Shown: positions 19,048 through 45,066 of the stretch, in pieces
How the letters are laid out: each line of letters opens with the position of its first letter
Position numbering within the stretch: position 1 is the first letter of the stretch
From: Candidatus Enterousia sp.
Lineage (GTDB): Bacteria > Pseudomonadota > Alphaproteobacteria > Rs-D84
Length of the DNA: 64,000 nucleotides
NCBI GenBank assembly: GCA_045606425.1
Contig: JAZURV010000004.1
Location: forward strand, 120,987-184,986
Direction of reading: 5' to 3'
The notes under the pieces: model-generated
Told to the model about the DNA's origin: nothing
What the model saw: the letters and a program-made list of their open reading frames with translations, nothing else
Databases searched by the model: none
Program-made: the position numbers and the translations under genes

Positions 19048-20892
19048 ATGAAAATAAGAAACATTGCTATTATTGCACACGTTGACCATGGGAAAACAAC
19101 CCTGGTTGATAATATGTTAAAACAAGCCGGAACTTTCCGTGAAAATGAACATGTCGAAGACCGCGTCATGGACAGTGGTGATATCGAACGCGAACGCGGG
19201 ATTACAATTTCTGCAAAACCCACATCTATTCAATGGGGCGAATACAAAATCAACATCGTTGATACGCCTGGACACGCAGACTTTGGCGGCGAAGTGGAAC
19301 GCATTTTATCTATGGTTGACGGGGTTGTGTTATTGGTGGACAGTGCCGAAGGCCCCCTGCCCCAAACTAAATTCGTGTTATCAAAGGCATTGAAATTAAA
19401 CCTGCGCCCGATTGTTTGCATCAACAAAATTGACCGTGGTGACGCACGCCCAGACGAAGTTTTAACAGAAACTTTTGATTTGTTTGATAAACTTGGCGCA
19501 ACAGATTCACAACTTGATTTCCCATATTTGTATGCTTGTGGAAGGGATGGTTGGGCAATCCGTGATTTGAAAGACATCGATAATCCTAACAAAGATTTAA
19601 CACCATTATTCCAACTGATTGTTGACCATGTTCCTGCCCCAGATTGCAACGGAACAAGATGCCAATTGGACGCACCTTTTAAAATGTTGGCAACTACATT
19701 AGAGGCAGACCCGTATGTCGGACGAATCCTGACTGGTAAAATTGAATCAGGCACTGTAAAGGTCGGTCAAAGTGTTAAAGCAATCAACATGGCGGGCGAA
19801 TTTATCGAAAATGCAAAAATCACAAAAATCATCGAACATCAAGGCGTTAACAAGGTTTCGCGCGAATCTGCTTCAGCTGGCGACATTGTCGTTATCGCCG
19901 GATTCACCAAGGCAACCGTGGCGGATACTTTATGCGACCCAAGTGTCAACGAACCAATCCCTGCGATGCCTATTGACCCACCAACCCTGACGATGACATT
20001 CTTTGTAAACACTTCACCATTGGCGGGTAAAAGCGGTAAAAAATTGACATCGCGTATGATTGGCGAAAGATTGTTCCGCGAAGCCGAAACCAACATCGCC
20101 CTGCGCGTCAGCCAAAGCGCAAACAACGAAGCATTCGAAGTTTCTGGTCGTGGCGAATTACAATTGGGTATTTTGATTGAAACAATGCGCCGCGAAGGTT
20201 TTGAATTGAGTGTATCCCGCCCACGCGTTGTTATGCAAACTTCCGAATCTGGCGAAAAATTAGAACCAATCGAAGAAGTTGTTATCGATGTGGACGATGA
20301 ATTCAGTGGTGTTGTTATTGAAAAAATGACTAAACGCAAGGCCACCATTACCGAAATGAAACCATCGGGCGTTGGCAAAACGCGTATCGTGTTTTCTGCA
20401 CCATCGCGTGGTTTGATTGGTTATTTGTCTGAATTCAGAACCGACACCCGTGGCACAGGTATTATGAACCGCGTATTCGATAAATATGATTTATATCGTG
20501 GTCCAATTACTCAATACCGCCCTGGCGTTTTGGTATCTATGGAAGCAGGCAGCACAACAACATACGCCCTGCACAATCTGGAACCACGCGGTGTTTTGTT
20601 TGTTGGCCCACAAACCGAAGTTTATTCCGGCATGATTGTTGGCGAACACAGCAAAGAAAACGATATAGAGGTCAACCCTGTGCGTGGCAAACAATTGACC
20701 AATGTCCGCAGTGTGACCGCAGATGAAAAATTGTTCCTGGCCCCACCACGCAAGATGTCATTGGAAGAAGCGCTGTCTTATATCCAAGATGATGAATTGG
20801 TAGAGGTCACGCCCGCAACAATTCGCCTGCGCAAAAAAGAATTGGACAGCGGTAAACGCAAAAAAGCATATCGCTTTGCCGAAACAGACTAA
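19048..20892 (+). CDS. typA: Translational GTPase TypA/BipA
   Basis: 614 aa with G1-G4 motifs (AHVDHGKTT, DTPGH, NKID) and a BipA-specific C-terminal domain. Confidence 0.93.
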   Translation: MKIRNIAIIAHVDHGKTTLVDNMLKQAGTFRENEHVEDRVMDSGDIERERGITISAKPTSIQWGEYKINIVDTPGHADFGGEVERILSMVDGVVLLVDSAEGPLPQTKFVLSKALKLNLRPIVCINKIDRGDARPDEVLTETFDLFDKLGATDSQLDFPYLYACGRDGWAIRDLKDIDNPNKDLTPLFQLIVDHVPAPDCNGTRCQLDAPFKMLATTLEADPYVGRILTGKIESGTVKVGQSVKAINMAGEFIENAKITKIIEHQGVNKVSRESASAGDIVVIAGFTKATVADTLCDPSVNEPIPAMPIDPPTLTMTFFVNTSPLAGKSGKKLTSRMIGERLFREAETNIALRVSQSANNEAFEVSGRGELQLGILIETMRREGFELSVSRPRVVMQTSESGEKLEPIEEVVIDVDDEFSGVVIEKMTKRKATITEMKPSGVGKTRIVFSAPSRGLIGYLSEFRTDTRGTGIMNRVFDKYDLYRGPITQYRPGVLVSMEAGSTTTYALHNLEPRGVLFVGPQTEVYSGMIVGEHSKENDIEVNPVRGKQLTNVRSVTADEKLFLAPPRKMSLEEALSYIQDDELVEVTPATIRLRKKELDSGKRKKAYRFAETD

Positions 20893-20894
20893 AT

Positions 20895-20923
20895 TAAAAA
20901 CCGCCAAAATGGCGGTTTTTTTA
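20895..20923. terminator. Bidirectional rho-independent terminator
   Basis: aaaaaccgccaaaatggcggttttttt between convergent typA and the first glycosyltransferase gene. Confidence 0.75.
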
Positions 20924-22144
20924 ATATTCGTATTTCAATACTTTCTTTAACCATTGCCGGAAATGATTTCTGCGTATACGCCCAGGCACAAAACACGAAA
21001 TATATTTAATGATATATTTTTTTACTGACTTTGTTGCATATTGTTGCGTATCACATTTAGACAACGCGATTTCGTAATCGGCAAATTCTTTATCCCAACC
21101 CATCAAATCTTTATCTGTATATTTAAAGCCATTTTCGTCAAAGAATTTTTTCATATACTCTGTCAAACCGATAATTTGTGGCGTCAAAGACCAATGGTCT
21201 GTTGGCACAGATTCCATTGACCCGACAATAAATATCGAATCTAATCCCTTTGCCATGTCTATAACATATTGCGTATCTGCATTATCTTGCAGTGGTGTAT
21301 TGCGTTTAATTTGAATAACCGTTCCACCCGGTTTCATAAACAAAGCAAGATGCAACGCGGTCCCCGCGCACCCCGCCAAAACCCGACAATTTTTAACCAG
21401 CGCAATTTGTTCCACCAATGGCAAGGTTTCAGGATAAATTATTTTAAATCCATTTTTTTCGAATATTTTTTGAATTGTCTTTTCACCATAGGTCAATCGG
21501 TCCAACGGCATTTTTGCACGCGACAGGTATATTTTTTCATATATTTCGCCATCATCCACACTGACCGCCATTTTATCATACATATCGCGATAGGCATTTG
21601 TGTAATACGCACTTAAATCAAATCCAGGCGTTGGAATAAAGACATTTTTAAACCGTGTTGTTTTATCTAATAAAATAATATTTTCTTTCTTTACCCCCAG
21701 CAAGCCCAGCAACACATAAATATAGTCATTTATTTTTTTGGATTTGGTTTCGTCGATAATAACCACTTTTGCATTTTTATATTTCTTGTCAATCAAACAC
21801 CAACCGCGATTTATGTGTTCTAATAAAAAATGCCCAAAAGAATTTTTTCCCAAATGGCATAAATAAATAACTTCTTCATCAACATACGGTATATTTTTAT
21901 GGTTAAAGGTTGGAACAAATTGACCCTTGTGCCCCTTGTGATTTTGCATGGACGATTTTACAAATTTGAAATTATCATCAAAAACACCGAAACCGTTTTC
22001 GTGTTCGTTGGCAATAATACCATTTTTGATAACTTCAACCACAGGTTCTGATTCTTTATAATAATGTTTTAATTTTTTTGTTAAATATTTGGTATATTTG
22101 CTATCAGCATATATTTTCATAAACCCACCTTTTTTATGATACAA
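20921..22144 (-). CDS. Glycosyltransferase, GT61/DUF563 family
   Basis: 407 aa; the GHFLLE motif and overall layout resemble DUF563/GT61, a family that is mostly eukaryotic. Confidence 0.6.
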   Translation of the reverse strand: MYHKKGGFMKIYADSKYTKYLTKKLKHYYKESEPVVEVIKNGIIANEHENGFGVFDDNFKFVKSSMQNHKGHKGQFVPTFNHKNIPYVDEEVIYLCHLGKNSFGHFLLEHINRGWCLIDKKYKNAKVVIIDETKSKKINDYIYVLLGLLGVKKENIILLDKTTRFKNVFIPTPGFDLSAYYTNAYRDMYDKMAVSVDDGEIYEKIYLSRAKMPLDRLTYGEKTIQKIFEKNGFKIIYPETLPLVEQIALVKNCRVLAGCAGTALHLALFMKPGGTVIQIKRNTPLQDNADTQYVIDMAKGLDSIFIVGSMESVPTDHWSLTPQIIGLTEYMKKFFDENGFKYTDKDLMGWDKEFADYEIALSKCDTQQYATKSVKKYIIKYISCFVPGRIRRNHFRQWLKKVLKYEY

Positions 22145-33530: not shown

Positions 33531-33560
33531 AAAAACGCCGCTCAACCGAGCGGTGTTTTT
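33531..33560. terminator. Bidirectional rho-independent terminator
   Basis: aaaaacgccgctcaaccgagcggtgttttt between convergent secB and paralog-A ORF. Confidence 0.7.
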
Positions 33561-33933
33561 ATTCGCAATATTTATTTTTATAAACTTCTATTGCTGTATC
33601 AAACCAAAAATATGGTTGATTTCGTGCACATAATTCCCGAACAAAAGAATCATAAATATCTGGTCTAAAAACCAAAAAATCACAAAAATACGCATTTACC
33701 AAATTCCATTCTGACGCAAACAGAAAAAGTTCGTCTGTGAATCCGTCCGCATAATCTTCCCTGTCCATAAAAAAGGTATCGCCATCTGTAAAGAAATAAA
33801 TCGTACCGCGCCTGTCCAGTGCACCAGATTGTGATATCATAAAAAACAACATTTTTGATGAAATGTCTTTTCTTACCGCACCTGGTGTTGTTCTTTGGAA
33901 ATTGACGCGCTTTATACAAATTGAATTTTCCAT
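33559..33933 (-). CDS. Hypothetical 124-aa protein, paralog A (about 80% identical to the 37197..37571 product)
   Basis: The probable start is the internal Met (MENSICIK) with an aggga SD. The frame is conserved between the two diverged copies. No recognised domain. Confidence 0.6.
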   Translation of the reverse strand: MENSICIKRVNFQRTTPGAVRKDISSKMLFFMISQSGALDRRGTIYFFTDGDTFFMDREDYADGFTDELFLFASEWNLVNAYFCDFLVFRPDIYDSFVRELCARNQPYFWFDTAIEVYKNKYCE

Positions 33934-34150
33934 ATTATCCCTGTCTTTTGTAAAAAACAAAGACCACTAAAAAATAAGTCGTCGGGGGTTAGAACAGCAT
34001 AGTAGTGAATGCTCCACCAAAGTGGCACCCCGCCCATAAGTCAGGGATATGGCACAAAAGCACCATAAACAGATTACGATGCTTATTGCACCGCACTACT
34101 ACGGGATGTTCTAAATCCCTAACCCAATTCCCATTGGATTCATGTATTAT
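33934..34150 (-). promoter_or_regulatory. Structured RNA leader/attenuator element, copy A
   Basis: About 200 nt upstream of paralog A. The 5' end carries the dyad CCAATTCCCATTGG (34124-34137). A multi-stem core includes P1 (GUAGUAGUG/CACUACUAU) and a CCAC-UUUG-GUGG hairpin. A weak terminator-like hairpin with U-run lies immediately before the start codon. It is homologous to copy B (36960..37196) with compensatory P1 changes. Confidence 0.6.
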
Positions 34151-34154
34151 TATA

Positions 34155-34205
34155 ATTGTGATTATTCAAAAAAGCAACTAAAAACGGCGCATCTGCGCCG
34201 TTCAA
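34155..34205 (-). terminator. Rho-independent terminator downstream of yebC
   Basis: Minus-strand hairpin aacggcgcagatgcgccgtt followed by tttagttgctttttt. Confidence 0.55.
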
Positions 34206-34309
34206 AAAACAAATTAGAATGATAAAGATGCGAAACCGTTGGTAAGCGTAGTGTAGTAGACCTACATGAGCGCACCAACGGCAAGCAGATTTATTATTAT
34301 AATTTGTTT

Positions 34310-35026
34310 TTACGCTGCGGCAGTGAATACTTTCTGAACATCATCATTCGCATCCAGCGCGTCAACCAATCTTTCAATTTTGGCATACGCTTCATCGTCT
34401 AAATCCATCGGCATATTTGGAACCCATGTGATTTCTGCGTTTTCTGGTTCACCCAATTTATCAGCCAATGCCTTTTGAATATTCATGAAATTATCTGGTT
34501 TTGTTGTGATTATGAAACCTTCTTCTGACGATTCCAGGTTATCTGCGTCAACTTCCATAACCAATTCCATCATTTCGTCTTCGCTTTTACCAATGGACGC
34601 CGGATACATAATCTGACCAACATGTGAAAACATGAAAACAACAGAACCTTCTTCGCCCATATTGCCACCGTTTTTGGCAAAAATATTACGAATTTCTGGC
34701 ACTGTACGGCGTGGATTATCGGTCAAGGCTTCTACAATAACAGGAACCGCGTTTGGGCCATAACCTTCATAACGCACTGCAACAAAGTTATCAGTATTTG
34801 CACCCGACGCCTTTTCAATTGCGCGTTTAATGTTATCGTTCGGCATAGACGCCTTGCGTGCCTGCAAAATTGCCAAACGCAATCTTGGGTTATTATCAGG
34901 ATTTTTATCACCCAATTTTGCCGCCATAGTTATTTCACGCGCCAGTTTAGTAAACAAACCACTGCGTGCCGCATCAACCAATCCTTTTTTGTGTTGGATG
35001 TTGTGCCATTTACTGTGTCCACTCAT
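34310..35026 (-). CDS. yebC: YebC/PmpR family DNA-binding transcriptional regulator
   Basis: 238 aa; MSGHSKWHNIQHKKG N-terminal signature. Confidence 0.9.
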   Translation of the reverse strand: MSGHSKWHNIQHKKGLVDAARSGLFTKLAREITMAAKLGDKNPDNNPRLRLAILQARKASMPNDNIKRAIEKASGANTDNFVAVRYEGYGPNAVPVIVEALTDNPRRTVPEIRNIFAKNGGNMGEEGSVVFMFSHVGQIMYPASIGKSEDEMMELVMEVDADNLESSEEGFIITTKPDNFMNIQKALADKLGEPENAEITWVPNMPMDLDDEAYAKIERLVDALDANDDVQKVFTAAA

Positions 35027-35076
35027 ATTTGACCTTTTGATTTAATTATATTAAAATTACACCAAAAGGATAACAA

Positions 35077-35646
35077 ATGATTGGAAAATTGCAAGGCGTA
35101 ATTGACTATATCGGTTCTGATTTCGTTATTTTGATGGCTGGACCCGTTGGGTACAAGGTCTATACGCCGGAAATCTTGACATTAAAGTCAACTGTCGCGC
35201 TTTGGATTGAAACGATTGTGCGCGAAGATTCTATAAGGTTATTTGGGTTTTCAACCATTGCCGGACAAAACCTGTTTAATCAACTGACCACCGTGTCTGG
35301 CGTTGGGCCAAAGGTTGCCATGGCGATTATGGGAACAATAAAAACAGATACACTTATGTCGGCGATTGCAACCGGCGACGCAAAAACAATCGCAACTGCC
35401 CCGGGGGTCGGGAAAAAAGTTGCTGAAAAAATCATAGTTGAATTAAAGAATAAAATGGGTGGTGCTGCGTTTGATTTTGGCACCGACAACAGCGGCGCCC
35501 TGCCCGATTTATTGGCGGCACTGGAATCCCTTGGTTATCGCCGTATGGATATTATCGACATGGCACAAAAATTGGTATCCAATAATCCAGACGCAAATGT
35601 TGCAAAACTGGTACCATTGGCATTAAAAGAAATAAGCGGTAAATAA
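35077..35646 (+). CDS. ruvA: Holliday junction DNA helicase RuvA
   Basis: 189 aa; MIGKLQG start and HhH motifs. Confidence 0.9.
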   Translation: MIGKLQGVIDYIGSDFVILMAGPVGYKVYTPEILTLKSTVALWIETIVREDSIRLFGFSTIAGQNLFNQLTTVSGVGPKVAMAIMGTIKTDTLMSAIATGDAKTIATAPGVGKKVAEKIIVELKNKMGGAAFDFGTDNSGALPDLLAALESLGYRRMDIIDMAQKLVSNNPDANVAKLVPLALKEISGK

Positions 35647-35649
35647 AAT

Positions 35650-36942
35650 ATGAATAACGATACAATATTTGCTTTATCAAGCGCACATGGAAAATCTGGT
35701 GTTGCAGTTATACGCATCAGCGGAAATGATTTGTCTGGTTTATTTAAACGCATTATAAACAAACCAGAATTTGAATCGCGTCACGCCTATTTCACAAATT
35801 TTCGCGATGATAACGGCAATTTAATCGACCAATGTATTGCTATATTTTTTGCCGCGCCAAATTCTTTTACTGGCGAAGATATTATTGAAATTCATTCACA
35901 TGGCGCACCGGCTGTTATAGATAAAATATTTGATTTTTTGCGCGGGCTTGGCGCACGAATTGCACAGCGCGGTGAATTTTCACGACGCGCATTTTATAAC
36001 AACAAAATGGATTTAACAGATGTCGATGGTTTAATCGCCCTGCTTGATGCACAAACAGATAAACAACGCGAATCCGCCCTTAAATCTTTAACAGGTGGCG
36101 ATTCAATCATGTATAAAAATTGGCGCGATAAAATGATTGAAATATCTGCCTATGCGGCGGCAATCCTGGATTATGACGCAGATGATTTACCAAAAGATAT
36201 CGATAAAAAAATATTACTGGAAACACAAAATTTATTAAAAGAAATCACAGAATCGACATCTAATTATCGCGCGTCGCGTGCAATTCAAAATGGGTTTAAT
36301 ATCGTTCTGGTTGGTGAAACAAATGTTGGAAAATCGTCCATCTTTAATAAATTGGTTGGTTCAAATCGTGCGATAGTTTCCGATATTGCCGGAACCACAC
36401 GTGATGTAGTGTCCCAACAAATAGATATTGACGGATATCTGGTAAACCTGTCCGATACGGCGGGAATCCGCGAAGCAACAGATGCTGTTGAAAAAATTGG
36501 CATTGAACGCACTCATGAAGAAACAAGAAATGCAGATTTAATTATCCATGTTTATAACGAATTGCCAAAAACAATAAACGAAAATGAAATCATCGTTATA
36601 AACAAAAGCGATTTATTAAAAAACAAATCAAACAAAAATGTAATTTATACATCGGCGAAAAATGGCGCGGGTTTTGATGAATTATTAAACGCAATTAAAA
36701 CAAAAATGCATGAATTGATGGGCGGGGCTGAATCTAAAATCACAATCAACGAACGCACATACGAATTATTAAATGAAACCATTTCCGAACTAAGAAATGC
36801 AATAAATAAATACGACGGCAATTATGATATCTTTGCAGAACATGTCCGTCGTGCAGGTGATGCAATTGGAAAGATTTTGGGGGTAATAACAACGAATGAA
36901 ATCGCCGATGCTACATTTTCAAGATTGTGTCTGGGGAAATAA
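35650..36942 (+). CDS. mnmE: tRNA modification GTPase MnmE (TrmE)
   Basis: 430 aa; G domain GETNVGKSS and C-terminal CLGK. Confidence 0.92.
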   Translation: MNNDTIFALSSAHGKSGVAVIRISGNDLSGLFKRIINKPEFESRHAYFTNFRDDNGNLIDQCIAIFFAAPNSFTGEDIIEIHSHGAPAVIDKIFDFLRGLGARIAQRGEFSRRAFYNNKMDLTDVDGLIALLDAQTDKQRESALKSLTGGDSIMYKNWRDKMIEISAYAAAILDYDADDLPKDIDKKILLETQNLLKEITESTSNYRASRAIQNGFNIVLVGETNVGKSSIFNKLVGSNRAIVSDIAGTTRDVVSQQIDIDGYLVNLSDTAGIREATDAVEKIGIERTHEETRNADLIIHVYNELPKTINENEIIVINKSDLLKNKSNKNVIYTSAKNGAGFDELLNAIKTKMHELMGGAESKITINERTYELLNETISELRNAINKYDGNYDIFAEHVRRAGDAIGKILGVITTNEIADATFSRLCLGK

Positions 36943-36959
36943 ATACATTTGCTTTTCTA

Positions 36960-37196
36960 AATAATCCAATTTATAATAATATATGAATCCAATGGGAATT
37001 GGGTTTGGGATTTAGAACATCTCTCTATCTAGGCGGTGCATAAAGCATCGTAATCCGCTTATGGTGCTTTTGTGCCATATTCCCTGACTTATGGTCGGGG
37101 TGCCACTTCGGTGGAGCATGCCTAGATATGCTGTTCTAACCCCCGACCGCTTGTTTTTTTCAGCGGTCTTTGTTTTTTACAAAAGACAGGGATAAT
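36960..37196 (+). promoter_or_regulatory. Structured RNA leader/attenuator element, copy B
   Basis: Dyad CCAATGGGAATTGG (36989-37002). P1 is AUCUAGGC (37027-37034) pairing with GCCUAGAU (37120-37127), enclosing sub-hairpins including CCAC-UUCG-GUGG. A terminator hairpin gaccgc..gcggtc (37145-37168) plus T-run ends 16 nt before the ATG at 37197. Confidence 0.65.
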
Positions 37197-37571
37197 ATGG
37201 AAAATTCAATTTGTATAAAGGGCGTCAATTTCCAAAGAACAACACCAGGTGCGGTAAGAAACGATATTTCATCAAAAATGTTGTTTTTTATGATATCACA
37301 ATCTGGTGCACTGGACAGGCGCGGTACGATTTATTTCTTTACGCCAACCGGCGCTTACTTTATGGAACTGGAAGATTATACAGCCGAATTCAAAGATGAA
37401 CTTTTTATATTCACATCAGAATGGAATTTGGTAAATGCATATTTTTGTGATTTTTTGATTATAAGACCAGATGTTTATGATTCTTTTATTCACGAATTAT
37501 GTGCAAAAAACATTCGTGATTTTTGGTTTGATACGGCAATAGAAATTTATCGAAATAAATATTGCGAATAA
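37197..37571 (+). CDS. Hypothetical 124-aa protein, paralog B
   Basis: MENSICIKGVNFQRTTPG...; about 80% identical to paralog A. It is oriented away from the central yebC-ruvA-mnmE segment, mirroring copy A. Confidence 0.6.
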   Translation: MENSICIKGVNFQRTTPGAVRNDISSKMLFFMISQSGALDRRGTIYFFTPTGAYFMELEDYTAEFKDELFIFTSEWNLVNAYFCDFLIIRPDVYDSFIHELCAKNIRDFWFDTAIEIYRNKYCE

Positions 37572-37600
37572 AAAAACGCCCAAACGGGCGTTTCTTTATT
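37571..37600. terminator. Bidirectional rho-independent terminator
   Basis: aaaaaacgcccaaacgggcgtttctttatt between paralog B and the convergent fadD-like gene 1. Confidence 0.7.
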
Positions 37601-39176
37601 CTTTTCTGTCTGGATATTTACCATTTATCAAATTCTTGCGCACTTCGTGGTGTTTAATCTTTTGAGTGCTGGTCATCGGCAAATCTTCCGTTGTCATCGC
37701 AAAATGGGTCACCCATTTATAGGATGCAACTTTTTTATTTTGTTCTGCGATTTCTTTGGAAAGTTTATCCATTGTCATATCTTTGTCGACACTGAAAACC
37801 CCATATGAAACAGTCTTGTCCCCAACCTTGTGTTCAAAGACAGCAACATTTTTAACGCCTTCGATTTCCAGATAAAGTGCTTCCAATTCATCAGGATAAA
37901 CATTTTTACCGCTGTCCAAAACAATTACTTGTTTTTTACGGCCGGCAAAGTGCAATTCGCCATTTTTATCCATGTACATCATGTCCCCAGTATTAAACCA
38001 ACCGTCTTGGTCAAATACAGTCGCATTGACTTCATCATTATTCAGATATCCATTAAACACCTGATGTCCACGCAACCATAAAACACCAACGCCATTTTCA
38101 TCTTTGTCGCGAATTTCGCATTCATTATTAGATGTTGGCGCCCCAACTGAATAAGCCAATCTTTTATTTGTTGGTTTGGAAATACAGATTGGTCCAACAG
38201 TTTCAGTCAAACCGTATCCCTGAATAAATGCCAGACCAAGCGATTCATAGAAATTTTCAACCTCTGGCTTGGTCGCGGCACCACCTGCAATCAGCAACTT
38301 TGCGCGTCCACCAAAAACATTTAACAAAGGTTCCTGAACTTTACGGACAAAGAAATCCAATCCCATATCTTTCAATGTTTTTTGGTTTCTTAAAATAAAT
38401 GATGCGACACGCCATTTATTTTGTTCTTTCATTGTTGTTATAATCTTGTTACGGAACAATTCCCAAACACGTGGAACGGCAGGTATAACATGCGGTTGGA
38501 ATTTCTTGAAATCGTCCAAGATATATTTTGGATTTATTGTTGGCTGCAAAACGAGTGACGCACCATAATGAATTGTTGCCAAAATACCGATTGCAAAACC
38601 GAATATATGATACAGTGGCAAAAATCCATACATAACATCACCAGAATGGAAATATTCAGACATATCTTCCAATGAATTTGCGCATTCTGTTAAATTAAAG
38701 TGTGTCAGTGGCACAACCTTTGGTGTTCCGGTTGACCCAGATGTAAACGACAGCGTCGCAACATCTGTGGATTCAGACGGATATGGGCGCAAATCATAAT
38801 CTATGTCGCCATCTTTTTTTGTTATGTCATAGAATTTAAATTTGTCTGTTTTATAAAAGAACGATGGTTCTGCGCACACAAATTTGCACCCCACGATTTC
38901 ACACATTTTATCATATTCGATTGGTGTTAAATTTGTATCCAGCATCAAAACCGTTCCACCCAAATACCATACCGCAAACAAAGTCAATGGGAACTGGGGC
39001 AAATTATGCGATAAAACACCAACAATATCGCCATGTTTGATACCCATTTTATTTAATGTTGCTGCACGGGCGCGAACCTGGTCTATAAATTGTGCATAGG
39101 TCACATTTTCACGAACCAGAAACAAATTTTCCGGCCATTGGTTCACTGCGTTTTCTAATTTTTGATACATATTCAT
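37596..39176 (-). CDS. AMP-dependent synthetase/ligase (long-chain acyl-CoA/acyl-ACP synthetase, FadD-like), copy 1
   Basis: AMP-binding motifs TSGSTGTPKVV, YGLTE, GWFNTGD, GRKKQVIVLDSGKNVYPDELE and C-terminal LPMTSTQK. The probable start is MNMYQKL at 39176; the ORF-track N-terminus extends 12 aa further to 39212. Confidence 0.8.
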   Translation of the reverse strand: MNMYQKLENAVNQWPENLFLVRENVTYAQFIDQVRARAATLNKMGIKHGDIVGVLSHNLPQFPLTLFAVWYLGGTVLMLDTNLTPIEYDKMCEIVGCKFVCAEPSFFYKTDKFKFYDITKKDGDIDYDLRPYPSESTDVATLSFTSGSTGTPKVVPLTHFNLTECANSLEDMSEYFHSGDVMYGFLPLYHIFGFAIGILATIHYGASLVLQPTINPKYILDDFKKFQPHVIPAVPRVWELFRNKIITTMKEQNKWRVASFILRNQKTLKDMGLDFFVRKVQEPLLNVFGGRAKLLIAGGAATKPEVENFYESLGLAFIQGYGLTETVGPICISKPTNKRLAYSVGAPTSNNECEIRDKDENGVGVLWLRGHQVFNGYLNNDEVNATVFDQDGWFNTGDMMYMDKNGELHFAGRKKQVIVLDSGKNVYPDELEALYLEIEGVKNVAVFEHKVGDKTVSYGVFSVDKDMTMDKLSKEIAEQNKKVASYKWVTHFAMTTEDLPMTSTQKIKHHEVRKNLINGKYPDRKE

Positions 39177-39330
39177 TTTAATATCCTTTTTGTTTACTTT
39201 TTCGCTCGACACACAATAAAAAAAATCAAAAAAATCTTGTGAACTTCAATTTTTTAAGCTTTTTTTAATTGTGTGTTCTCGTATTCGCTCGCTTGGCACA
39301 ATTTGTGCCGGCTGCGCGGATAACGCAACG

Positions 39331-39362
39331 ATTGCGGAAGCAGTATTCACTGCTTCCGCAAT
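39331..39362. repeat. Perfect 13-bp-stem palindrome between fadD-like copies 2 and 1
   Basis: attgcggaagcag-tattca-ctgcttccgcaat lies 7 nt after the fadD-like-2 stop. There is no downstream U-run on the minus strand. Nearby palindromes are ggcacaatttgtgcc (39293-39308) and acacacaatt/aattgtgtgt (39199-39208 / 39268-39277). Confidence 0.5.
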
Positions 39363-39368
39363 CTGCTT

Positions 39369-40949
39369 TTATTCATGTCTGTTTGTATATTTACCGTCTA
39401 TCAACCATTGACGAACAACATGATGTTTAATTTTTTGAGTACTGGTCACCGGTAAATCGTCGGTTGTCATCGCAAAATGTGTCACCCATTTATAGGACGC
39501 AACTTTTTTATTTTTTTCTGCGACTGCGGCGGCCAATTTATCCATTGTCATACCTTCTTCGACACTGAATACGCCGTATGCGACGGTTTTGTCATTTACT
39601 TCATGTTCAAAAACCGCAACACTTTTTACACCATCGATTTCGATAAACAAGGCTTCCAATTCATCAGGATAAACATTTTTACCACTGTCCAAAACAATTA
39701 CTTGTTTTTTACGACCAGCAAAATGCAATTCGCCGTTTTTATCCTGCCATACTAAATCACCAGTACAGAACCAGCCATCTTTGTCAAACGATTCTTTATT
39801 CGCAGCATCATTATTTGCGTACCCGCCAAAGATTTGATTGCCACGAACCCACAGCATACCAATACCATCTTCGTCTTGGTTGCGAATTTGGATTTCAGTA
39901 TCACCCATCGGCGCACCAAATGCGTATGGCACACGTTTTTTCAGCGGGCGCGAACAACAGATTGGCCCCACAGTTTCGGTCATACCATAACCCTGAACGA
40001 ATGCCATTCCCAGTTGAGTATAGAATTTTTCAACCTCTGGTTTGGTCGCGGCACCACCTGCAACCAACAGACGCGCGCGTCCACCAAAAATTGCGCGAAT
40101 TTGATTCAAAACTTTATCAACCAGTTTTGACATACCCATTGCACGCAACAATTTTTGATTATTCATTACAAACGATACCAATCCCCATTTCTTTTTTGCC
40201 TTGATACCATCGATAATTTTCTTGCGGAAAATTTCCCACAACTTTGGCACCGCAGGAATAACCTGGGGTTTATATTGTGCAAAATCCGCCATAATTGCAT
40301 TTGGATTTATTGTTGATTGCAACAAAATTCCCATACCAAAATGCAACGGTGCCAAAAATCCAACTGCGAATCCAAACACATGGTACAATGGTAAAAAAGC
40401 ATAGAACATTTCACCAGGGCGCAACCACTGATTCAAATATTCCAAATTATCAGAACAAGAAACCAGATTAAAGTGTGTCAACGGCACAACCTTTGGCGTT
40501 CCAGTTGACCCCGATGTAAACGACAATGTTGCAATATCGCTGTCTTTCAATGGGTATGGCTTTAAAGATTCATCGTTTTTTTCGTCTTTCGTTTCAATAT
40601 CAAAAAACTTAAAGCCCTTTGCATCATAAAAGAAAGATTTTTCTGCACATACAATTTTACAACCTGTTATTTCGGTCATATTATCATATTCTGCAGAGGT
40701 TAAATTCGTATCCAACAACAAAACCGTTCCGCCCAGGTACCATATAGCGAACAAAGTTATTGGAAACTGTGGCAAATTATGCGCCAACAAACCAACAACA
40801 TCGCCCGGTTTTACACCCGCATCACGCAAAGTTGTCGCACGTGCCTGAACCAATTTCACTAATTCTTTAAATGTGACATTTTCACGAACCAAAAACACAG
40901 TTTCTGGGTTTCTTTCCACATTTTTTTCTAATAACTGATACATATTCAT
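39369..40949 (-). CDS. AMP-dependent synthetase/ligase (FadD-like), copy 2
   Basis: 526 aa with the same motif set (TSGSTGTPKVV, YGMTE, GWFCTGD, LPVTSTQK). Its ATG overlaps the TAA of copy 3 by 1 nt (TAATG). Confidence 0.8.
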   Translation of the reverse strand: MNMYQLLEKNVERNPETVFLVRENVTFKELVKLVQARATTLRDAGVKPGDVVGLLAHNLPQFPITLFAIWYLGGTVLLLDTNLTSAEYDNMTEITGCKIVCAEKSFFYDAKGFKFFDIETKDEKNDESLKPYPLKDSDIATLSFTSGSTGTPKVVPLTHFNLVSCSDNLEYLNQWLRPGEMFYAFLPLYHVFGFAVGFLAPLHFGMGILLQSTINPNAIMADFAQYKPQVIPAVPKLWEIFRKKIIDGIKAKKKWGLVSFVMNNQKLLRAMGMSKLVDKVLNQIRAIFGGRARLLVAGGAATKPEVEKFYTQLGMAFVQGYGMTETVGPICCSRPLKKRVPYAFGAPMGDTEIQIRNQDEDGIGMLWVRGNQIFGGYANNDAANKESFDKDGWFCTGDLVWQDKNGELHFAGRKKQVIVLDSGKNVYPDELEALFIEIDGVKSVAVFEHEVNDKTVAYGVFSVEEGMTMDKLAAAVAEKNKKVASYKWVTHFAMTTDDLPVTSTQKIKHHVVRQWLIDGKYTNRHE

Positions 40950-42547
40950 TATAAACGCTCCCGTAATTTACTGGTATTTTCTGGATATTTGCCATCGATA
41001 AGATTCTGGCGCACTTCATGATGTTTAACCTTTTGTGTACTGGTCATTGGCAAATCATCAGTAGTCATCGCAAAATGGGTCACCCATTTATACGGCGCAA
41101 CCTTACGATTAGCCAGCGCAACTTGCGCCGCCAGTTTCAAAAAACTCATCCCCTTGTTCACCTGGAATACAGCATATGTGACGGTTTTATTTTTTTCTTT
41201 GTGTTCAAAAACTGCGACATTTTTTACGCCATCTATTTCCATGAACAATGCTTCCAATTCATCCGGATAAACATTTTTACCACTGTCCAGAACGATAACT
41301 TGTTTTTTGCGTCCTGCAAAATGATACTGTTTATTTTTATCCAGATAGACTAAATCACCGGTATTAAACCAACCGTCTTTGTCGAATGATTCAGAATTTG
41401 CCTCTGCATTATTCAAATATCCATTAAAGACATTTGGTCCGCGCACCCACAGTGTTCCAATACCTTTTTCATTGGCATCACGAATTGTGCATTCTGAACA
41501 ACCAATTGGTGTTCCAAACGCGAACGGCACACGATGTTTCGACGGACGCGAACAACAGAATGGCCCAACCGTTTCAGTCATACCATATCCCTGAACAAAG
41601 GTGATTCCCAATGATTCATAGAATTTTTCAACCTCTGGTTTTGTCGCGGCGCCGCCCGCAATCATCAAATTCACACGCCCACCAAAGATGTCACGCAACG
41701 GTTTTTGTACCTTTTTAACCAGTTTACCCAACCCAATTGCACGCAAAAACTTTTGCCGACGCAATACGAAAGACACAAACCACCACATATGTTTTTCTTT
41801 GACCCCGCTGATGATTTTATTACGGAACACTTCGTAAAGGCGCGGCACCGCCGGAATACAGTGTGGTTTATAAACCCTAAAATCTTCCAATATATTTTTT
41901 GGATTTACGGTTGGCTGTAATAAAATTCCCATGTGGAAATACATAGGTGCCAAAATACCACCTGCAAAACCGAATATATGATACAGCGGCAAAAAACCAT
42001 ACATTATTTCGTTTTTATGAATCCATTGTCCCATATCTGCGTAATAATCAGACGAACTTTTCAGATTTCCATGCGTCAGTGGCACAACCTTTGGATTGCC
42101 AGTCGAACCTGATGTAAAGGACAGCGTTGCAATATCATCAGATTTCAAATCTGCAGGTTTCACATTGGCATCGGCTGCATCATCAGTGCTTTGTATATCA
42201 AAGAACTTAAATCCCCTGGCCTTGTAAAAGAATGATTTTTCGGCGCACACGAATTTGCACCCCACCCTTTTGGTCATATTATCATATTCGAACGGTGTTA
42301 AATTTGTATCCAACAACAAAACCGTACCACCCAAATACCATATCGCGAAAAGTGTCAATGGAAATTCTGGAATATTATGCGCCAACAAACCAACGACATC
42401 GCCCTGCTTTACCCCGGCGTTATGCAAAGTCGTCGCGCGTGCATGAATCAAATCCAGCGCCATTTTAAATGTGATTTTTTCGCGTACCAAAAACAAAGCA
42501 TCTGGCGATTCTTTCGCCACTTGCTTGAACACTTGATACATATTCAT
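40949..42547 (-). CDS. AMP-dependent synthetase/ligase (FadD-like), copy 3
   Basis: 532 aa with the same conserved motifs (TSGSTGNPKVV, YGMTE, GWFNTGD, LPMTSTQK). Confidence 0.8.
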   Translation of the reverse strand: MNMYQVFKQVAKESPDALFLVREKITFKMALDLIHARATTLHNAGVKQGDVVGLLAHNIPEFPLTLFAIWYLGGTVLLLDTNLTPFEYDNMTKRVGCKFVCAEKSFFYKARGFKFFDIQSTDDAADANVKPADLKSDDIATLSFTSGSTGNPKVVPLTHGNLKSSSDYYADMGQWIHKNEIMYGFLPLYHIFGFAGGILAPMYFHMGILLQPTVNPKNILEDFRVYKPHCIPAVPRLYEVFRNKIISGVKEKHMWWFVSFVLRRQKFLRAIGLGKLVKKVQKPLRDIFGGRVNLMIAGGAATKPEVEKFYESLGITFVQGYGMTETVGPFCCSRPSKHRVPFAFGTPIGCSECTIRDANEKGIGTLWVRGPNVFNGYLNNAEANSESFDKDGWFNTGDLVYLDKNKQYHFAGRKKQVIVLDSGKNVYPDELEALFMEIDGVKNVAVFEHKEKNKTVTYAVFQVNKGMSFLKLAAQVALANRKVAPYKWVTHFAMTTDDLPMTSTQKVKHHEVRQNLIDGKYPENTSKLRERL

Positions 42548-43392: not shown

Positions 43393-44085
43393 TTATTCTG
43401 GTGCGTTAAAGGTCCAACCGGTAAAGATTTTTCCATTAATATGTTGGGCCTTTAGCGGTGTATGTATATCCCCGCCATAGGTGACGTTGCCGGCGTTGTT
43501 TGCGGTTATGTCCGCCGCATCAGCATGATCCCAAGTGATTGAAATAGTATTCGCAGTGCAAACCGACGAACCCGCAGGCGCAGAATACCCCGTCGCACAG
43601 GCACTTATACCCTGGTCGATGTTTTCGTTAAAACTATACGTTCCACCAACAGAATAACTATTCGCGGGGCATTGTGTGCACGCATCCACGTCGGCAGGCA
43701 AGTAATACCCGACTGAACAAGTATGTGTATTTGGGACAAATTCTGCCACCAGATTACCATTATAAAGTAAATCCCTGGAACAACCCTTTTCTACATTTTC
43801 GACAATAGGTAAAGTATAAACAATTCCTTGGTCAATATTTTGGTTAAATCTAAAATTTCCACCACTGCAAGTGTGTCCAGATAAACAAGATGTACACCCG
43901 TCAATATTTGCGGGCAAATAATAACCGGACGAACAATTATACAGCGTCGGTTCGAACAGAGCGGTCAGTGTTGCTGGGTTATAATCAAAAGAGCAACCGT
44001 TCGCGGTATTTTCTGAAAATATTTCAGCGTATGCAAAGTTTGCATATGATATAAAAACGCCCAAGATAAAAACTAATTTTTTCAT
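43393..44085 (-). CDS. Secreted Cys-rich protein with two ephrin-receptor-like (GCC2_GCC3-type) repeats
   Basis: Signal peptide; an internal duplication of a roughly 75-aa module, CSSGYYLPANIDGCTSCLSGHTCSGGNFRFNQNIDQGI and CSVGYYLPADVDACTQCPANSYSVGGTYSFNENIDQGI; C-terminal GKIFTGWTF. Confidence 0.55.
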   Translation of the reverse strand: MKKLVFILGVFISYANFAYAEIFSENTANGCSFDYNPATLTALFEPTLYNCSSGYYLPANIDGCTSCLSGHTCSGGNFRFNQNIDQGIVYTLPIVENVEKGCSRDLLYNGNLVAEFVPNTHTCSVGYYLPADVDACTQCPANSYSVGGTYSFNENIDQGISACATGYSAPAGSSVCTANTISITWDHADAADITANNAGNVTYGGDIHTPLKAQHINGKIFTGWTFNAPE

Positions 44086-44091
44086 CTTTTT

Positions 44092-44802
44092 TTATTCGGA
44101 CAAAGACCAACTTTCTTCCACCGGTTCCGCCAACGGGTAATAACAAGTGACTGGTTGACCGGCGGCATATCTTTCCGCCAACCACGTATTAAATTCTGTT
44201 TGATTTGCAAATCTGCTATCTGTGACATTAAATTGAATTGTATTATTTTCACTTGCACCTAAATAGAATGTGTTATTTTTGACCAGTCCCCATTTCTGAT
44301 AATTCGAATAATAATTGCAAATAGGGACATCTTGTTTTATTGAACGTTGAACATTGCTTGTTAAGGTCCCTGAGATACAATAAAAACTATCTGGGCCAAA
44401 CCAGTTTTCTCTCCAGCTTTCGTTTCCTTTTAGTATTAATACTCCGACACGACGTGTAATTTTTTCACTGGAAGGATTATATTCGTCAGCTACGAAATCT
44501 TCCCCACTGCCCAATGCGCGCAAAACAGTATCGCCCAGTTGATAAAATACTGGTTCTATGGGATTTGTCGGGGTTGGCGTCCCAGATTGTGACCAAGTGC
44601 CGGTTATAACACCATAATTCCATCCGACAAATGTATAACCGTATTTTGTTGGCGACGTTTGCGGAATTATCAGATTGCCACCTGATTCACAGGTGCTGGT
44701 TGAATATGTTGTGTCTCCTACTTTCCAATTTACATTTATTGTTTCGGCAAATACGATATTGCATATTAAAACCACACCAAAAAACACGAAAAACTTCTTC
44801 AT
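44092..44802 (-). CDS. Secreted protein with Listeria-Bacteroides-repeat-like motif
   Basis: The probable start is MKKFFVFFGVVLICNIVFA (ATG at 44800-44802; the ORF-track extension uses TTG). It contains YGYTFVGWNY. Confidence 0.55.
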   Translation of the reverse strand: MKKFFVFFGVVLICNIVFAETINVNWKVGDTTYSTSTCESGGNLIIPQTSPTKYGYTFVGWNYGVITGTWSQSGTPTPTNPIEPVFYQLGDTVLRALGSGEDFVADEYNPSSEKITRRVGVLILKGNESWRENWFGPDSFYCISGTLTSNVQRSIKQDVPICNYYSNYQKWGLVKNNTFYLGASENNTIQFNVTDSRFANQTEFNTWLAERYAAGQPVTCYYPLAEPVEESWSLSE

Positions 44803-44814
44803 CCTTGTCCCCCG

Positions 44815-45045
44815 TTTTTGCAAACAAAAAACCGCCAAAGGAATTTTAGGCGGTCGGGGAGTTGGTAAATCACATTGTTATAGATTTCCGCGCCTTACGG
44901 TAAGCGGCTCCCCAACCTTGTTAGTTAGGGATGATAACGGTGCAAAAAACACCAAAAATATCAAATTAACGATGCATTTGCACCGAACAATGTGGGCTAC
45001 CACAGCCCCGAACCCAATCCCTTGGATTCATTTGTATCATATCAT
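44815..45045 (-). promoter_or_regulatory. Structured RNA leader / sRNA-like element, copy C
   Basis: The 5' end AUGAAUCCAAGGGAUUGGGUUCGGGG (dyad CCAATCCCTTGG 45014-45025) and the 3' end CCCCGACCGCC-loop-GGCGGU + UUUUUGUUUG terminator (44831-44856) match elements A and B; the middle differs. It ends about 12 nt upstream of the 44092..44802 gene. Confidence 0.5.
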
Positions 45046-45066
45046 AAAAAAACTGTTTATACAAGA

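What the first reader, a model, noticed from the sequence alone, without database searches (positions are those of the whole stretch)
33934..37196. Novel structured RNA leader family with compensatory covariation (candidate riboswitch/attenuator) upstream of paralogous small ORFs
Two ~200-nt elements (33934-34150 on the minus strand; 36960-37196 on the plus strand) precede paralogous 124-aa ORFs. Each has a conserved 5' block with the dyad CCAAT-N4-ATTGG, a multi-stem core, and a hairpin plus U-run immediately upstream of the start codon, which is a riboswitch/attenuator-like layout.

The closing helix P1 differs completely between the copies yet stays complementary: copy B has AUCUAGGC...GCCUAGAU and copy A has GUAGUAGUG...CACUACUAU. 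The inner hairpin CCAC-UUCG-GUGG (B) is CCAC-UUUG-GUGG (A). That is the covariation expected of a functional RNA structure. I could not match the core to any riboswitch class I recall (TPP, SAM, FMN, cobalamin, glycine, c-di-GMP, ydaO, fluoride, Mn, ZTP, guanidine).
Basis: seen in the sequence. Interest (0 to 1): 0.85.

Follow-up and report, generated by a model that had tools for sequence, protein, structure and literature searches.

The report
New structured leader RNA, three copies
A previously undescribed, heavily folded ~190-nt RNA ending in a transcription terminator sits in front of three genes in this small gut-symbiont genome, and is most likely a new genetic switch that decides whether those genes are transcribed.

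Summary
Two inverted ~620-bp copies (leader plus 124-aa ORF) lie at 33559-34177(-) and 36948-37571(+). They differ in helix P1 by six compensatory base-pair swaps.

With 24 distinct homologous leaders, the fold is strongly supported. These come from one narrow clade of reduced-genome gut/rumen Alphaproteobacteria (Ca. Enterousia / Rs-D84).
- 96-97% of cells pair, against 31-52% when the partners are slid.
- 20-30 pairs show double changes, and 0/500 shuffles reach the observed values.

No Rfam 15 family matches, even at E<=10.

It lies in front of an unrelated secreted-protein gene. The RNA is therefore a modular 5' leader, not a partner of the 124-aa protein.

Each copy has a promoter-like site and a 5' hairpin. 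A multi-helix junction follows, closed by P1/P0b, then an intrinsic terminator 20-30 nt before the start codon.

The 3' strand of conserved hairpin P3 is also complementary (8-10 bp) to the 5' strand of the terminator. That gives a classic anti-antiterminator/antiterminator/terminator arrangement.

The best reading is a new transcription-attenuating leader, a riboswitch-like candidate, whose signal is unknown. The mechanism is inferred, not shown.

The parts
36948..36977 (+). Copy B promoter-like site (TTGCTT, about 17-18 nt, TATAAT). The -10 ends 6-7 nt before the first base of the RNA.
   Evidence: Read from the sequence. The same block, TTTGCTTTTT..AATAATCAnATTTATAAT, is conserved upstream of all ORF124-linked leaders. 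It was not flagged by the consensus scanner.
36984..37177 (+). Copy B structured leader RNA. Helices: H0 36985-37006; P0a 37007-09/37142-44; P0b 37012-19/37132-39; P1 37026-34/37120-28; P2/P2b 37035-37076; P3 37082-37100; P4 37103-37114; terminator 37145-37168 plus U-tract.
   Evidence: cmsearch 72.8 bits, E about 1e-18. RNAfold -83 to -87.5 kcal/mol, z = -6.6.
37197..37571 (+). ORF124 copy B (124 aa, acidic, no known domain)
34149..34177 (-). Copy A promoter-like site (TTGCTT-17-TATAAT)
   Evidence: Sequence and alignment.
33953..34142 (-). Copy A structured leader RNA. Helices: P1 34103-34094/34007-33998; P0b 34114-07/33996-89; P3 34046-34028; terminator 33983-33962. P3, the distal strand and the terminator each carry a weakening change.
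   Evidence: cmsearch 70.7 bits. Fold z = -6.05. Helix coordinates. Weakened helices.
33559..33933 (-). ORF124 copy A (124 aa, 79% identical to copy B)
45036..45064 (-). Copy C promoter-like site (TTGTAT-17-TATGAT). It is unrelated in sequence to the copy A/B promoter block.
   Evidence: Read from the sequence. Inference only.
44821..45030 (-). Helices: H0 45029-45010; P0a 45009-06/44859-56; P0b 45002-44997/44868-63; P1 44994-86/44879-71; P2/P2b 44985-44938; P3 44931-44909; P4 44907-44888; terminator 44855-44830 plus U-tract.
   Evidence: cmsearch 98.5 bits, E about 1e-25. Fold.
44092..44802 (-). Gene downstream of copy C: a 236-aa protein with a signal peptide and a weak Listeria-Bacteroides repeat match. 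A second secreted Cys-rich 230-aa ORF follows at 43393-44085(-).
34310..36942 (.). The yebC(-), ruvA(+), mnmE(+) block enclosed by inverted copies A and B. It is found in both orientations in related genomes.

Best explanation
The element is a new family of cis-acting, structured 5' leader RNA, about 180-225 nt long. It controls its downstream gene by premature transcription termination.

**Layout.** Each copy is transcribed from its own promoter. The RNA then has:
- a conserved 5'-terminal hairpin (H0, loop GGGA);
- a 4- or 5-way junction (P2, optional P2b, P3, P4) closed by the sequence-free helices P1 and P0b;
- a canonical intrinsic terminator (GACCGCC/GGCGGUC plus U-tract), ending 20-30 nt before the Shine-Dalgarno and start codon.

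**Inferred mechanism.** The RNA works as a four-segment attenuator.
- Segment c (CCCCAACC) pairs with segment d (GGUUGGGG) to form P3.
- d can instead pair with segment e (CUCCCCGACC), which carries the 5' half of the terminator.
- e otherwise pairs with segment f to form the terminator.
- When the junction domain is folded (the thermodynamic default), P3 locks d away, the terminator forms, and the gene is off.
- An unknown signal that opens or prevents P3 would free d to sequester e and allow read-through. That signal could be loss of a ligand, or binding of a factor to the C-rich strand or to the junction.

**Shown:** the fold, its covariation, its absence from Rfam, its position, and its modular use before two unrelated gene families.

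**Inferred:** transcription of the element, termination at the hairpin, the switch itself, and the nature of the signal.
For: **Structure**
- Single-sequence MFE folds of 23 of 24 leaders give the same architecture.
- RNAalifold on a plain MAFFT alignment recovers H0, P0a, P0b, P1, P2, P3 and the terminator. 20 of its 42 pairs show double changes.
- On that alignment 97.5% of cells pair, against 31-52% when partners are slid. There are 137 double-change cells against 38+/-5 in shuffles, with 0/500 shuffles as high.
- On the alignment fitted to the covariance model, 30 of 55 pairs show double changes, with up to 6 pair types per P1 pair.

**Strand**
- Reverse-strand scores are 19-37 bits against 70-205 bits for the forward strand.
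- G-U pairs are frequent.

**Not a known family**
-.

**Leader position**
- Every ORF124 locus with enough upstream sequence carries the RNA on the same strand. Its terminator lies directly before the start codon.

**Modularity**
- Copy C has the same H0, P3, distal strand and terminator. Its P1, P0b, P4, promoter and downstream gene are all different.

**Switch**
- The d:e duplex averages -17.9 kcal/mol, against -15.6 for c:d and -8.8 for the terminator hairpin.
- At one position, c, d and e change together: C/G/C in types 1-2, G/U/G in type 3 and G/C/G in L010.
- Infernal independently paired GGUUGGGGA with UCCCCGACC in its sub-threshold sRNA-Xcc1 alignment.
- The local hairpin GGGNU/ANCCC offers an alternative partner for the 5' GGG. 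Its fourth pair covaries as A-U, C-G and U-A.
- Helices with a single partner (P0b, P1, P2, P4) vary freely. Segments with several possible partners (a, b, c, d, e, f) are nearly invariant.
Against: - There is no expression, 5'-end or termination data.
- The folded-domain-plus-terminator state is 4-13 kcal/mol more stable than the antiterminator state at the decision point, and 11-19 kcal/mol more stable at full length. The alternative therefore needs an active trigger or a kinetic route, and none is identified.
- P3 is a local hairpin that forms before segment e is made.
- Junction sequences (J2/3, J4/1) differ between the three structural types. No strictly conserved pocket is evident, which is unlike classical metabolite riboswitches.
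- The controlled genes are a small acidic protein of unknown function and secreted proteins. They give no ligand clue.
- Covariation for d:e and for the local hairpin rests on two or three 'types', that is, on few independent events.
- P0a (GGG/CCC) never varies.
- All data come from one narrow clade, so conservation is weakly informative.
- The L026/L027 leader has unpaired P0b and P1. It is either a natural recombinant or an assembly chimera.
Confidence: 0.68

Rival explanations
1. The element is a protein-dependent attenuator, and ORF124 itself is the trans-acting regulator. ORF124 would bind the conserved parts of the leader (H0, the C-rich strand or P3). It would thereby autoregulate its own two genes and also control the copy C operon, as BglG/SacY or PyrR do.
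For: - Almost all known copies precede ORF124, and all ORF124 homologs carry the leader.
- Identical ORF124 proteins sit behind different core types (L019 against L020). That fits a protein recognising only the invariant parts.
Against: - ORF124 is acidic (pI about 4.7 in most members) and about 20% aromatic, which is unusual for an RNA-binding protein.
- No fold match is significant.
- No Pfam, NCBIfam or PADLOC match was found.
- The protein evolves fast (48-87% identity) while the candidate binding sites are invariant.
Confidence: 0.12
2. The copies are independent small-RNA genes. Each is a stable trans-acting or housekeeping sRNA with its own promoter and terminator. The downstream ORFs are merely neighbours, or are expressed by incidental read-through.
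For: - Each copy has a complete promoter-to-terminator unit.
- The fold is very stable.
- A 5'-terminal hairpin is typical of stable RNAs.
Against: - In 3 of 3 window copies and in all other loci, a same-strand ORF starts 20-30 nt after the U-tract.
- No convincing promoter lies between the terminator and the ORF.
- Three differently sequenced copies in 64 kb of a genome under 1 Mb would be odd for one sRNA function.
- No single-stranded region is conserved enough to suggest a seed.
Confidence: 0.12
3. The element is a type III-like toxin-antitoxin or other RNA-protein conflict cassette. The structured RNA would neutralise ORF124, and the terminator would set the RNA:protein ratio.
For: - The RNA-terminator-ORF order is the same as in toxIN.
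- The cassette is far more divergent than its neighbours: ORF124 is 48-87% identical while yebC is 95-99%.
- The cassette is swapped between strains and is duplicated.
Against: - There are no tandem RNA repeats.
- ORF124 has no ToxN/AbiQ or any PADLOC match. The only row is a sub-threshold Csm2 hit on P0022.
- Copy C uses the same RNA in front of secreted-protein genes.
- Identical proteins occur with different RNA cores.
- P1 type does not track the protein's variable region.
Confidence: 0.04
4. The feature acts only at the DNA level. The repeats would be recombination substrates or remnants of a mobile element, and the dyads would be protein-binding or cruciform sites rather than RNA helices.
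For: - The two copies are 620-bp inverted repeats flanking a block that is inverted in some relatives.
- H0 is a near-palindrome just downstream of the -10.
Against: - G-U pairs are common in H0, P2 and P3. They would be A-C mismatches on the other strand.
- The covariance model scores the opposite strand 130-170 bits lower.
- No transposase, terminal repeats or target duplications are present.
- Nothing similar occurs in the phage, plasmid or viral collections.
- The sites are syntenic, not scattered.
Confidence: 0.03

Closest known systems
Riboswitches with intrinsic-terminator expression platforms (for example purine, c-di-GMP-I/II, ydaO/c-di-AMP)
   Same: - A 5'-UTR position.
- A multi-helix junction closed by a sequence-free P1.
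- Strong covariation.
- A terminator directly downstream, with a competing helix.
- Like the c-di-GMP classes, it precedes secreted or surface proteins and genes of unknown function.
   Different: - No Rfam model matches.
- The junction sequence is not strictly conserved across the three structural types.
- The distribution is limited to one genus-level clade.
- The folded domain does not overlap the terminator through P1. It does so only through P3's 3' strand.
- Ligand binding is untested.
Classical four-segment attenuators (trp/his/leu leaders: 1:2, 2:3, 3:4)
   Same: There are three mutually exclusive helices: c:d as anti-antiterminator, d:e as antiterminator and e:f as terminator. The antiterminator is stronger than the terminator.
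   Different: - No conserved leader peptide. The 5'-terminal ORF has a variable start codon, which is absent in two leaders, and a length of 10-60 codons.
- Segments 1 and 2 are embedded in a large structured junction.
BglG/SacY-type RAT-terminator leaders and the PyrR attenuator
   Same: A leader with a terminator precedes the gene of a small protein that could autoregulate. The same leader recurs before another operon.
   Different: - ORF124 has no CAT/PRD or PyrR domain and is acidic.
- The RNA is about 190 nt with a multi-way junction, not a hairpin of about 30 nt.
Type III toxin-antitoxin loci (toxIN, cptIN, tenpIN)
   Same: - The order promoter, structured RNA, terminator, small ORF.
- A rapidly evolving cassette.
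   Different: - No tandem repeats.
- No ToxN-like protein.
- The RNA is also used before unrelated genes.
sRNA-Xcc1 (RF02221), the only Rfam model with any overlap
   Same: A G-rich/C-rich long-range helix (GGUUGGGGA/UCCCCGACC) closing an internal hairpin.
   Different: - It scores 24 bits against a gathering score of 53.
- It covers only 81 nt.
- It is a sub-threshold resemblance, not membership.

Membership tests
Any Rfam 15 family (including all curated riboswitch classes, T-box, leaders, ribozymes) | A covariance-model score at or above the family's gathering threshold | tested here: not met
   - The whole window at gathering thresholds gives only 2 tRNAs.
- Window leader copies A, B and C have no overlapping match at E<=10.
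- The related L019 leader overlaps only sub-threshold rows, the best being sRNA-Xcc1 at 24.3 bits against a gathering score of 53.
Riboswitch (generic) | A conserved, covarying structured domain in the 5' UTR of the regulated gene | tested here: met
   for covariation. for the position upstream of a same-strand ORF. Transcription itself is not shown.
Riboswitch (generic) | An expression platform whose terminator competes with an alternative helix linked to the sensing domain | tested here: inconclusive
   - The terminator is present and covaries.
- The d:e alternative is 8-10 bp and -17 to -20 kcal/mol in 24 of 25 leaders. It is weakened to -10.5 kcal/mol in window copy A.
- It lies 4-13 kcal/mol above the default fold.
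- It is supported by few independent covariation events.
Riboswitch (generic) | Direct, specific binding of a small-molecule or ion ligand | not testable with these tools
   This needs in-line probing, ITC or similar. No ligand clue comes from the downstream genes.
Riboswitch (generic) | Near-invariant nucleotides forming a pocket in the junction across members | tested here: inconclusive
   J2/3 (UUAAAU/UAAUC) and J4/1 (AAUCAAU/AGCAU/GGACAUU) differ between types 1, 2 and 3. The clade is too narrow to judge.
Ribosome-mediated (leader-peptide) attenuator | A conserved short leader ORF with a start signal and regulatory codons positioned over segment 1 | tested here: not met
   The only recurrent ORF starts at the first base of H0 with ATG, GTG or TTG. 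It is absent in L007 and L013, ends after 10-60 codons at non-homologous places, and has no Shine-Dalgarno.
Type III toxin-antitoxin | Antitoxin RNA made of tandem direct repeats | tested here: not met
   TRF and the repeat finder report no tandem array in the leaders.
Type III toxin-antitoxin | A ToxN/AbiQ/CptN/TenpN-type endoribonuclease toxin | tested here: not met
Type III toxin-antitoxin | The RNA is exclusively linked to its cognate toxin gene | tested here: not met
   Copy C precedes a secreted-protein gene. Identical ORF124 proteins occur with different cores.
Insertion sequence / MITE | A transposase or terminal inverted repeats with target-site duplication, and scattered multi-copy distribution | tested here: not met
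   - No transposase domain is present.
- Copies sit at the same syntenic sites across genomes.
- Only 3 true hits occur in 64 kb with filters off.
- Nothing similar is in the phage, plasmid or viral sets.

The most novel reading that the evidence does not exclude
This would be a new riboswitch class in reduced-genome gut symbionts (Ca. Enterousia / Rs-D84). It would sense an unidentified small molecule or second messenger, possibly derived from the host or a partner organism. It would gate hypervariable 'contingency' genes: a fast-evolving acidic 124-aa protein and secreted surface-type proteins. Its three structural core types, which co-occur in one genome in front of identical proteins, could represent different specificities or thresholds of one scaffold.
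Probability: 0.3. Interest if true: 0.8.

Novelty: new member of a known kind. Interest (0 to 1): 0.62.

Why it matters
- If it is a regulatory switch, it is the first cis-regulatory RNA described for the Rs-D84/Enterousia lineage. These are uncultured gut bacteria with genomes under 1 Mb and few recognisable regulators (PMC12306168).
- It controls genes that look like fast-evolving interaction or conflict genes, so it could reveal what signal these symbionts monitor.
- For RNA biology it offers a compact, covariation-rich new fold: a 4- or 5-way junction, two hypervariable closing helices, and a possible pseudoknot alternative. It has natural 'allelic' core variants and a built-in three-helix attenuator, ready for in vitro termination assays and ligand screens.
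- It also shows that a covariance model built from a handful of metagenomic homologs can expose further copies that reading by eye missed.

Tried and rejected
- **Rfam searches.** Gathering thresholds on the whole window, and E<=10 on the leaders. Nothing was found.
- **c-di-AMP (ydaO) resemblance recalled from memory** (GAAUC, GGGGA, CCCGA motifs). Rfam does not support it.
- **Protein family searches for ORF124** (Pfam, NCBIfam, PADLOC, PHROGs). Nothing significant.
- **Profile search of 1.84 billion representatives.** Only 10 hits. Two are DUF192 fusions, which say nothing about function.
- **Mobile or viral origin.** No blastn hits in phages or plasmids. 85 IMG/VR loci carrying the 17-mer motif gave no covariance-model hit.
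- **P1 as a specificity code matched to the protein's variable segment.** Rejected. L001 combines copy A's P1 with copy B's protein segment, and L019/L020 combine identical proteins with different cores.
- **Leader peptide.** Rejected.
- **Tandem repeats.** None.
- **Two extra weak covariance-model hits with filters off** (20890-21020 and 39215-39358). They are ordinary terminators or AT-rich spacers.
- **The long P2 hairpin predicted for copies A and B.** Homologs L016 and L008 favour two hairpins instead, P2 plus P2b.
- **Consensus promoter/terminator scan.** It did not recover the leader signals.
- **Homologs of copy C.** I could not fetch them because the contig look-ups and the genome and metagenome scans were exhausted.
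- **Literature search for the conserved strings.** Nothing relevant.


Full report
**1. The observation**

The window carries two inverted copies of a module of about 620 bp. Copy A is on the minus strand (ORF 33559-33933, leader to about 34177). Copy B is on the plus strand (leader from about 36948, ORF 37197-37571). They are 89% identical and appear as inverted repeats I1-I5.

- the dyad CCAAT-N4-ATTGG;
- the UUCG/UUUG hairpin;
- the hairpin plus U-run just before the ATG;
- a closing helix that differs at 6 of 9 base pairs yet stays complementary, UAUCUAGGC/GCCUAGAUA against GUAGUAGUG/CACUACUAU.

Both leaders fold much better than dinucleotide shuffles (z = -6.6 and -6.05).

**2. Not a known RNA**

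cmscan against all 4227 Rfam 15 families finds only two tRNAs in the window at gathering thresholds. With E<=10 and lax filters, nothing overlaps any of the three window leader copies. On a related leader (L019), the best overlap is a 24-bit sub-threshold match to sRNA-Xcc1, whose gathering score is 53.

**3. Homologs and host**

The 124-aa ORF has no Pfam, NCBIfam, PADLOC or PHROG family. It has only 26 clusters of relatives among 5.8 billion proteins.

I fetched 35 related loci.
- The four from genome assemblies are titled as (alpha)proteobacterial MAGs, including Ca. Enterousia. One title says yak reticulum.
- The rest are unnamed metagenome contigs.
- The neighbouring housekeeping proteins are 70-99% identical to the window's, so this is one narrow clade.
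- Ca. Enterousia (order Rs-D84) has genomes under 1 Mb (PMC12306168).

Every locus with enough upstream sequence has the same leader.

The cassette is much more divergent than its surroundings. ORF124 is 48-87% identical while yebC is 95-99%. ORF124 is nevertheless under purifying selection, with a median dN/dS of 0.29.

**4. The fold**

Independent MFE folds of 23 of 24 distinct leaders give one architecture:
- **H0:** a 5' hairpin with loop (U)GGGA(A).
- **P0a:** GGG(G)/CCC(C).
- **P0b and P1:** two long-range helices with at least 11 and at least 15 different complementary sequences respectively.
- **P2.**
- **P2b:** an optional hairpin, present in types 1 and 3 and in copy C.
- **P3:** highly conserved, CCCCAACC/GGUUGGGG.
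- **P4:** 12-40 nt, in several variants.
- **Terminator:** GACCGCC/GGCGGUC plus U-tract.

The covariation figures are as follows.

| Measure | Plain MAFFT alignment | Alignment fitted to the covariance model |
|---|---|---|
| Pairs with double changes | 20 of 42 | 30 of 55 |
| Cells forming standard pairs | 97.5% | 96.3% |
| Same, with partners slid | 31-52% | 33-52% |
| Double-change cells | 137, against 38+/-5 in shuffles | 187, against 51+/-6 in shuffles |
| Shuffles reaching the observed value | 0/500 | 0/500 |

All eight P1 pairs covary in the model-fitted alignment.

Frequent G-U pairs, and reverse-strand scores 130-170 bits lower, identify the ORF strand as the RNA strand.

One leader (L026/L027) is a chimera of two alleles, with P0b and P1 unpaired. 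It is either a natural recombinant or an assembly artefact.

**5. A third copy changes the picture**

A covariance model built from 11 'type 2' leaders finds three hits in the window. It is confirmed with filters off. The only other weak hits there are ordinary terminators or AT-rich spacers.

Copy C shares H0, P3, the distal CUCCCCGACCGCC and a terminator with copies A and B. Its P1 (ACAUUGUU/AACAAUGU), P0b, P4 and promoter are all its own.

It precedes a 236-aa protein with a signal peptide and a weak Listeria-Bacteroides repeat match. A second secreted Cys-rich protein follows.

The RNA is therefore a modular leader, not a dedicated partner of ORF124. That argues against a type III-like toxin-antitoxin pair, as do four further points:
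- there are no tandem repeats;
- there is no ToxN-like protein;
- identical ORF124 proteins sit behind different RNA cores (L019 against L020);
- P1 type does not correlate with the protein's variable segment.

**6. Why copies A and B look the way they do**

Among type 1 leaders, P1 and the core recombine freely. Copies A and B and L001 share a core. Copy A and L001 share one P1. Copy B and L016 share another.

Within one genome the flanks and the core are homogenised while both P1 strands differ. This is what frequent short-tract gene conversion between the inverted copies would leave if conversions hitting only one P1 strand are selected against.

The same inverted copies flank yebC-ruvA-mnmE, and that block occurs in both orientations among relatives. 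This is consistent with recombination between the copies.

**7. Mechanism (inference)**

A perfect TATAAT lies 6-7 nt upstream of H0 in the ORF124-linked copies. The conserved -35/spacer block is TTTGCTTTTT..AATAATCA. Copy C has TTGTAT-17-TATGAT.

The terminator ends 20-30 nt before the start codon, and no convincing promoter lies between them. The downstream gene therefore depends on read-through.

The 3' strand of P3 plus the next two bases (d, GGUUGGGGAG) is complementary to the distal strand (e, CUCCCCGACC). Segment e contains the first four bases of the terminator stem. The pairing is 10 bp in type 2 and copy C, 9 bp in type 3, and 8 bp in type 1.

| Helix | Mean energy (kcal/mol) |
|---|---|
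| d:e (antiterminator) | -17.9 |
| c:d (P3) | -15.6 |
| Terminator hairpin | -8.8 |

Further points bearing on the switch:
- At one position the three strands change together: C/G/C, G/U/G and G/C/G.
- The 5' GGG can pair with the distal CCC (P0a). It can also pair locally, as GGGNU/ANCCC, whose fourth pair covaries A-U, C-G and U-A.
- Segments with several possible partners are nearly invariant, whereas single-partner helices vary freely.

This is the logic of a four-segment attenuator embedded in a structured sensor domain.

The fully folded domain plus terminator is the thermodynamic default, by 4-13 kcal/mol at the decision point. Read-through therefore needs a trigger that I cannot identify. 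No conserved leader peptide exists.

ORF124 is acidic (pI about 4.7) and aromatic-rich. Its confident AlphaFold2 model (pLDDT 86.6) has no significant structural neighbour. It is therefore a poor, though not excluded, candidate for the regulator.

**8. Comparison, novelty and verdict**

The element works like a riboswitch or attenuator with a terminator platform. It is not a member of any curated family.

I file it as a new member of the known kind 'structured transcription-attenuating 5' leader'. It is an orphan riboswitch-like candidate.

- Confidence in the structured-RNA claim is very high.
- Confidence in the cis-regulatory attenuator reading is about 0.7.
- The specific switch and the signal are hypotheses.

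The element's narrow distribution and the lack of any expression data temper the score.

**9. Copy A**

Copy A carries changes that weaken P3, the d:e helix and the terminator. It may be leakier or decaying.

Noticed in passing
window 34310-36942, with L001, L016, L018 against L003, L004, L006, L010, L015, L020, L025, L026: The yebC-ruvA-mnmE block lies between the inverted leader+ORF124 copies. It is found in both orientations in closely related genomes. This looks like inversion by homologous recombination between the copies, and some genomes then retain only one copy.
   Followed up: partly
window 37596-42547 (minus strand): There are three tandem paralogous AMP-binding (acyl-CoA-synthetase-like) genes of 526-538 aa. 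They are 72-79% identical at the DNA level over long stretches.
   Followed up: no
window 33953-34142 (copy A): Copy A has GGGCGGGG instead of GGUCGGGG in P3, GACG instead of GACC in the distal strand, and a G-G mismatch in the terminator (-6.9 against -10.9 kcal/mol in copy B). This copy may terminate less efficiently, or it may be degenerating.
   Followed up: partly
L026:2554-2732 and L027:721-899: This leader's 5' half comes from one allele and its 3' half from another, so P0b and P1 cannot pair. It is either a natural recombinant or a metagenome assembly chimera. The crossover lies in the conserved P3-P4 stretch.
   Followed up: partly
L019:1752-1931 against L020:2388-2609: Two loci encode the identical 123-aa protein (P0007) with identical promoters and terminators. 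Their RNA cores differ in type: type 2 at the mnmE/AMP site and type 3 at the yebC/secB site.
   Followed up: partly
P0030, P0033 (distant relatives of ORF124): The ORF124-like domain occurs as the C-terminal half of proteins of about 270 aa whose N-terminal half is DUF192 (PF02643).
   Followed up: partly
L031:2507-3097 and L002: A third genomic site for the leader+ORF124 cassette lies between a dnaN-side hypothetical gene and a DNA_alkylation-repair gene. A DAC (diadenylate cyclase domain) gene is nearby.
   Followed up: no
window 43393-44802 (minus strand): Downstream of copy C are two consecutive genes for secreted proteins of unknown function. One has a weak Listeria-Bacteroides repeat match, and the other is Cys-rich with internal repeats.
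   Followed up: partly
L006:3140-4292 (also L012): About 1.1 kb of extra sequence lies between mnmE and ruvA, compared with the other genomes.
   Followed up: no
window 50580-50651 and 50797-50880: Two tRNA genes lie here. The second is an 84-nt long-variable-arm type with a modest score of 38.5 bits.
   Followed up: no
first bases of H0 in most leaders (for example window 36983-37015): A short ORF (MNPMGIGFG...) begins at the predicted 5' end with ATG, GTG or TTG. Its length varies from 10 to 60 codons and its start is missing in two leaders. It is probably a by-product of the conserved hairpin.
   Followed up: yes
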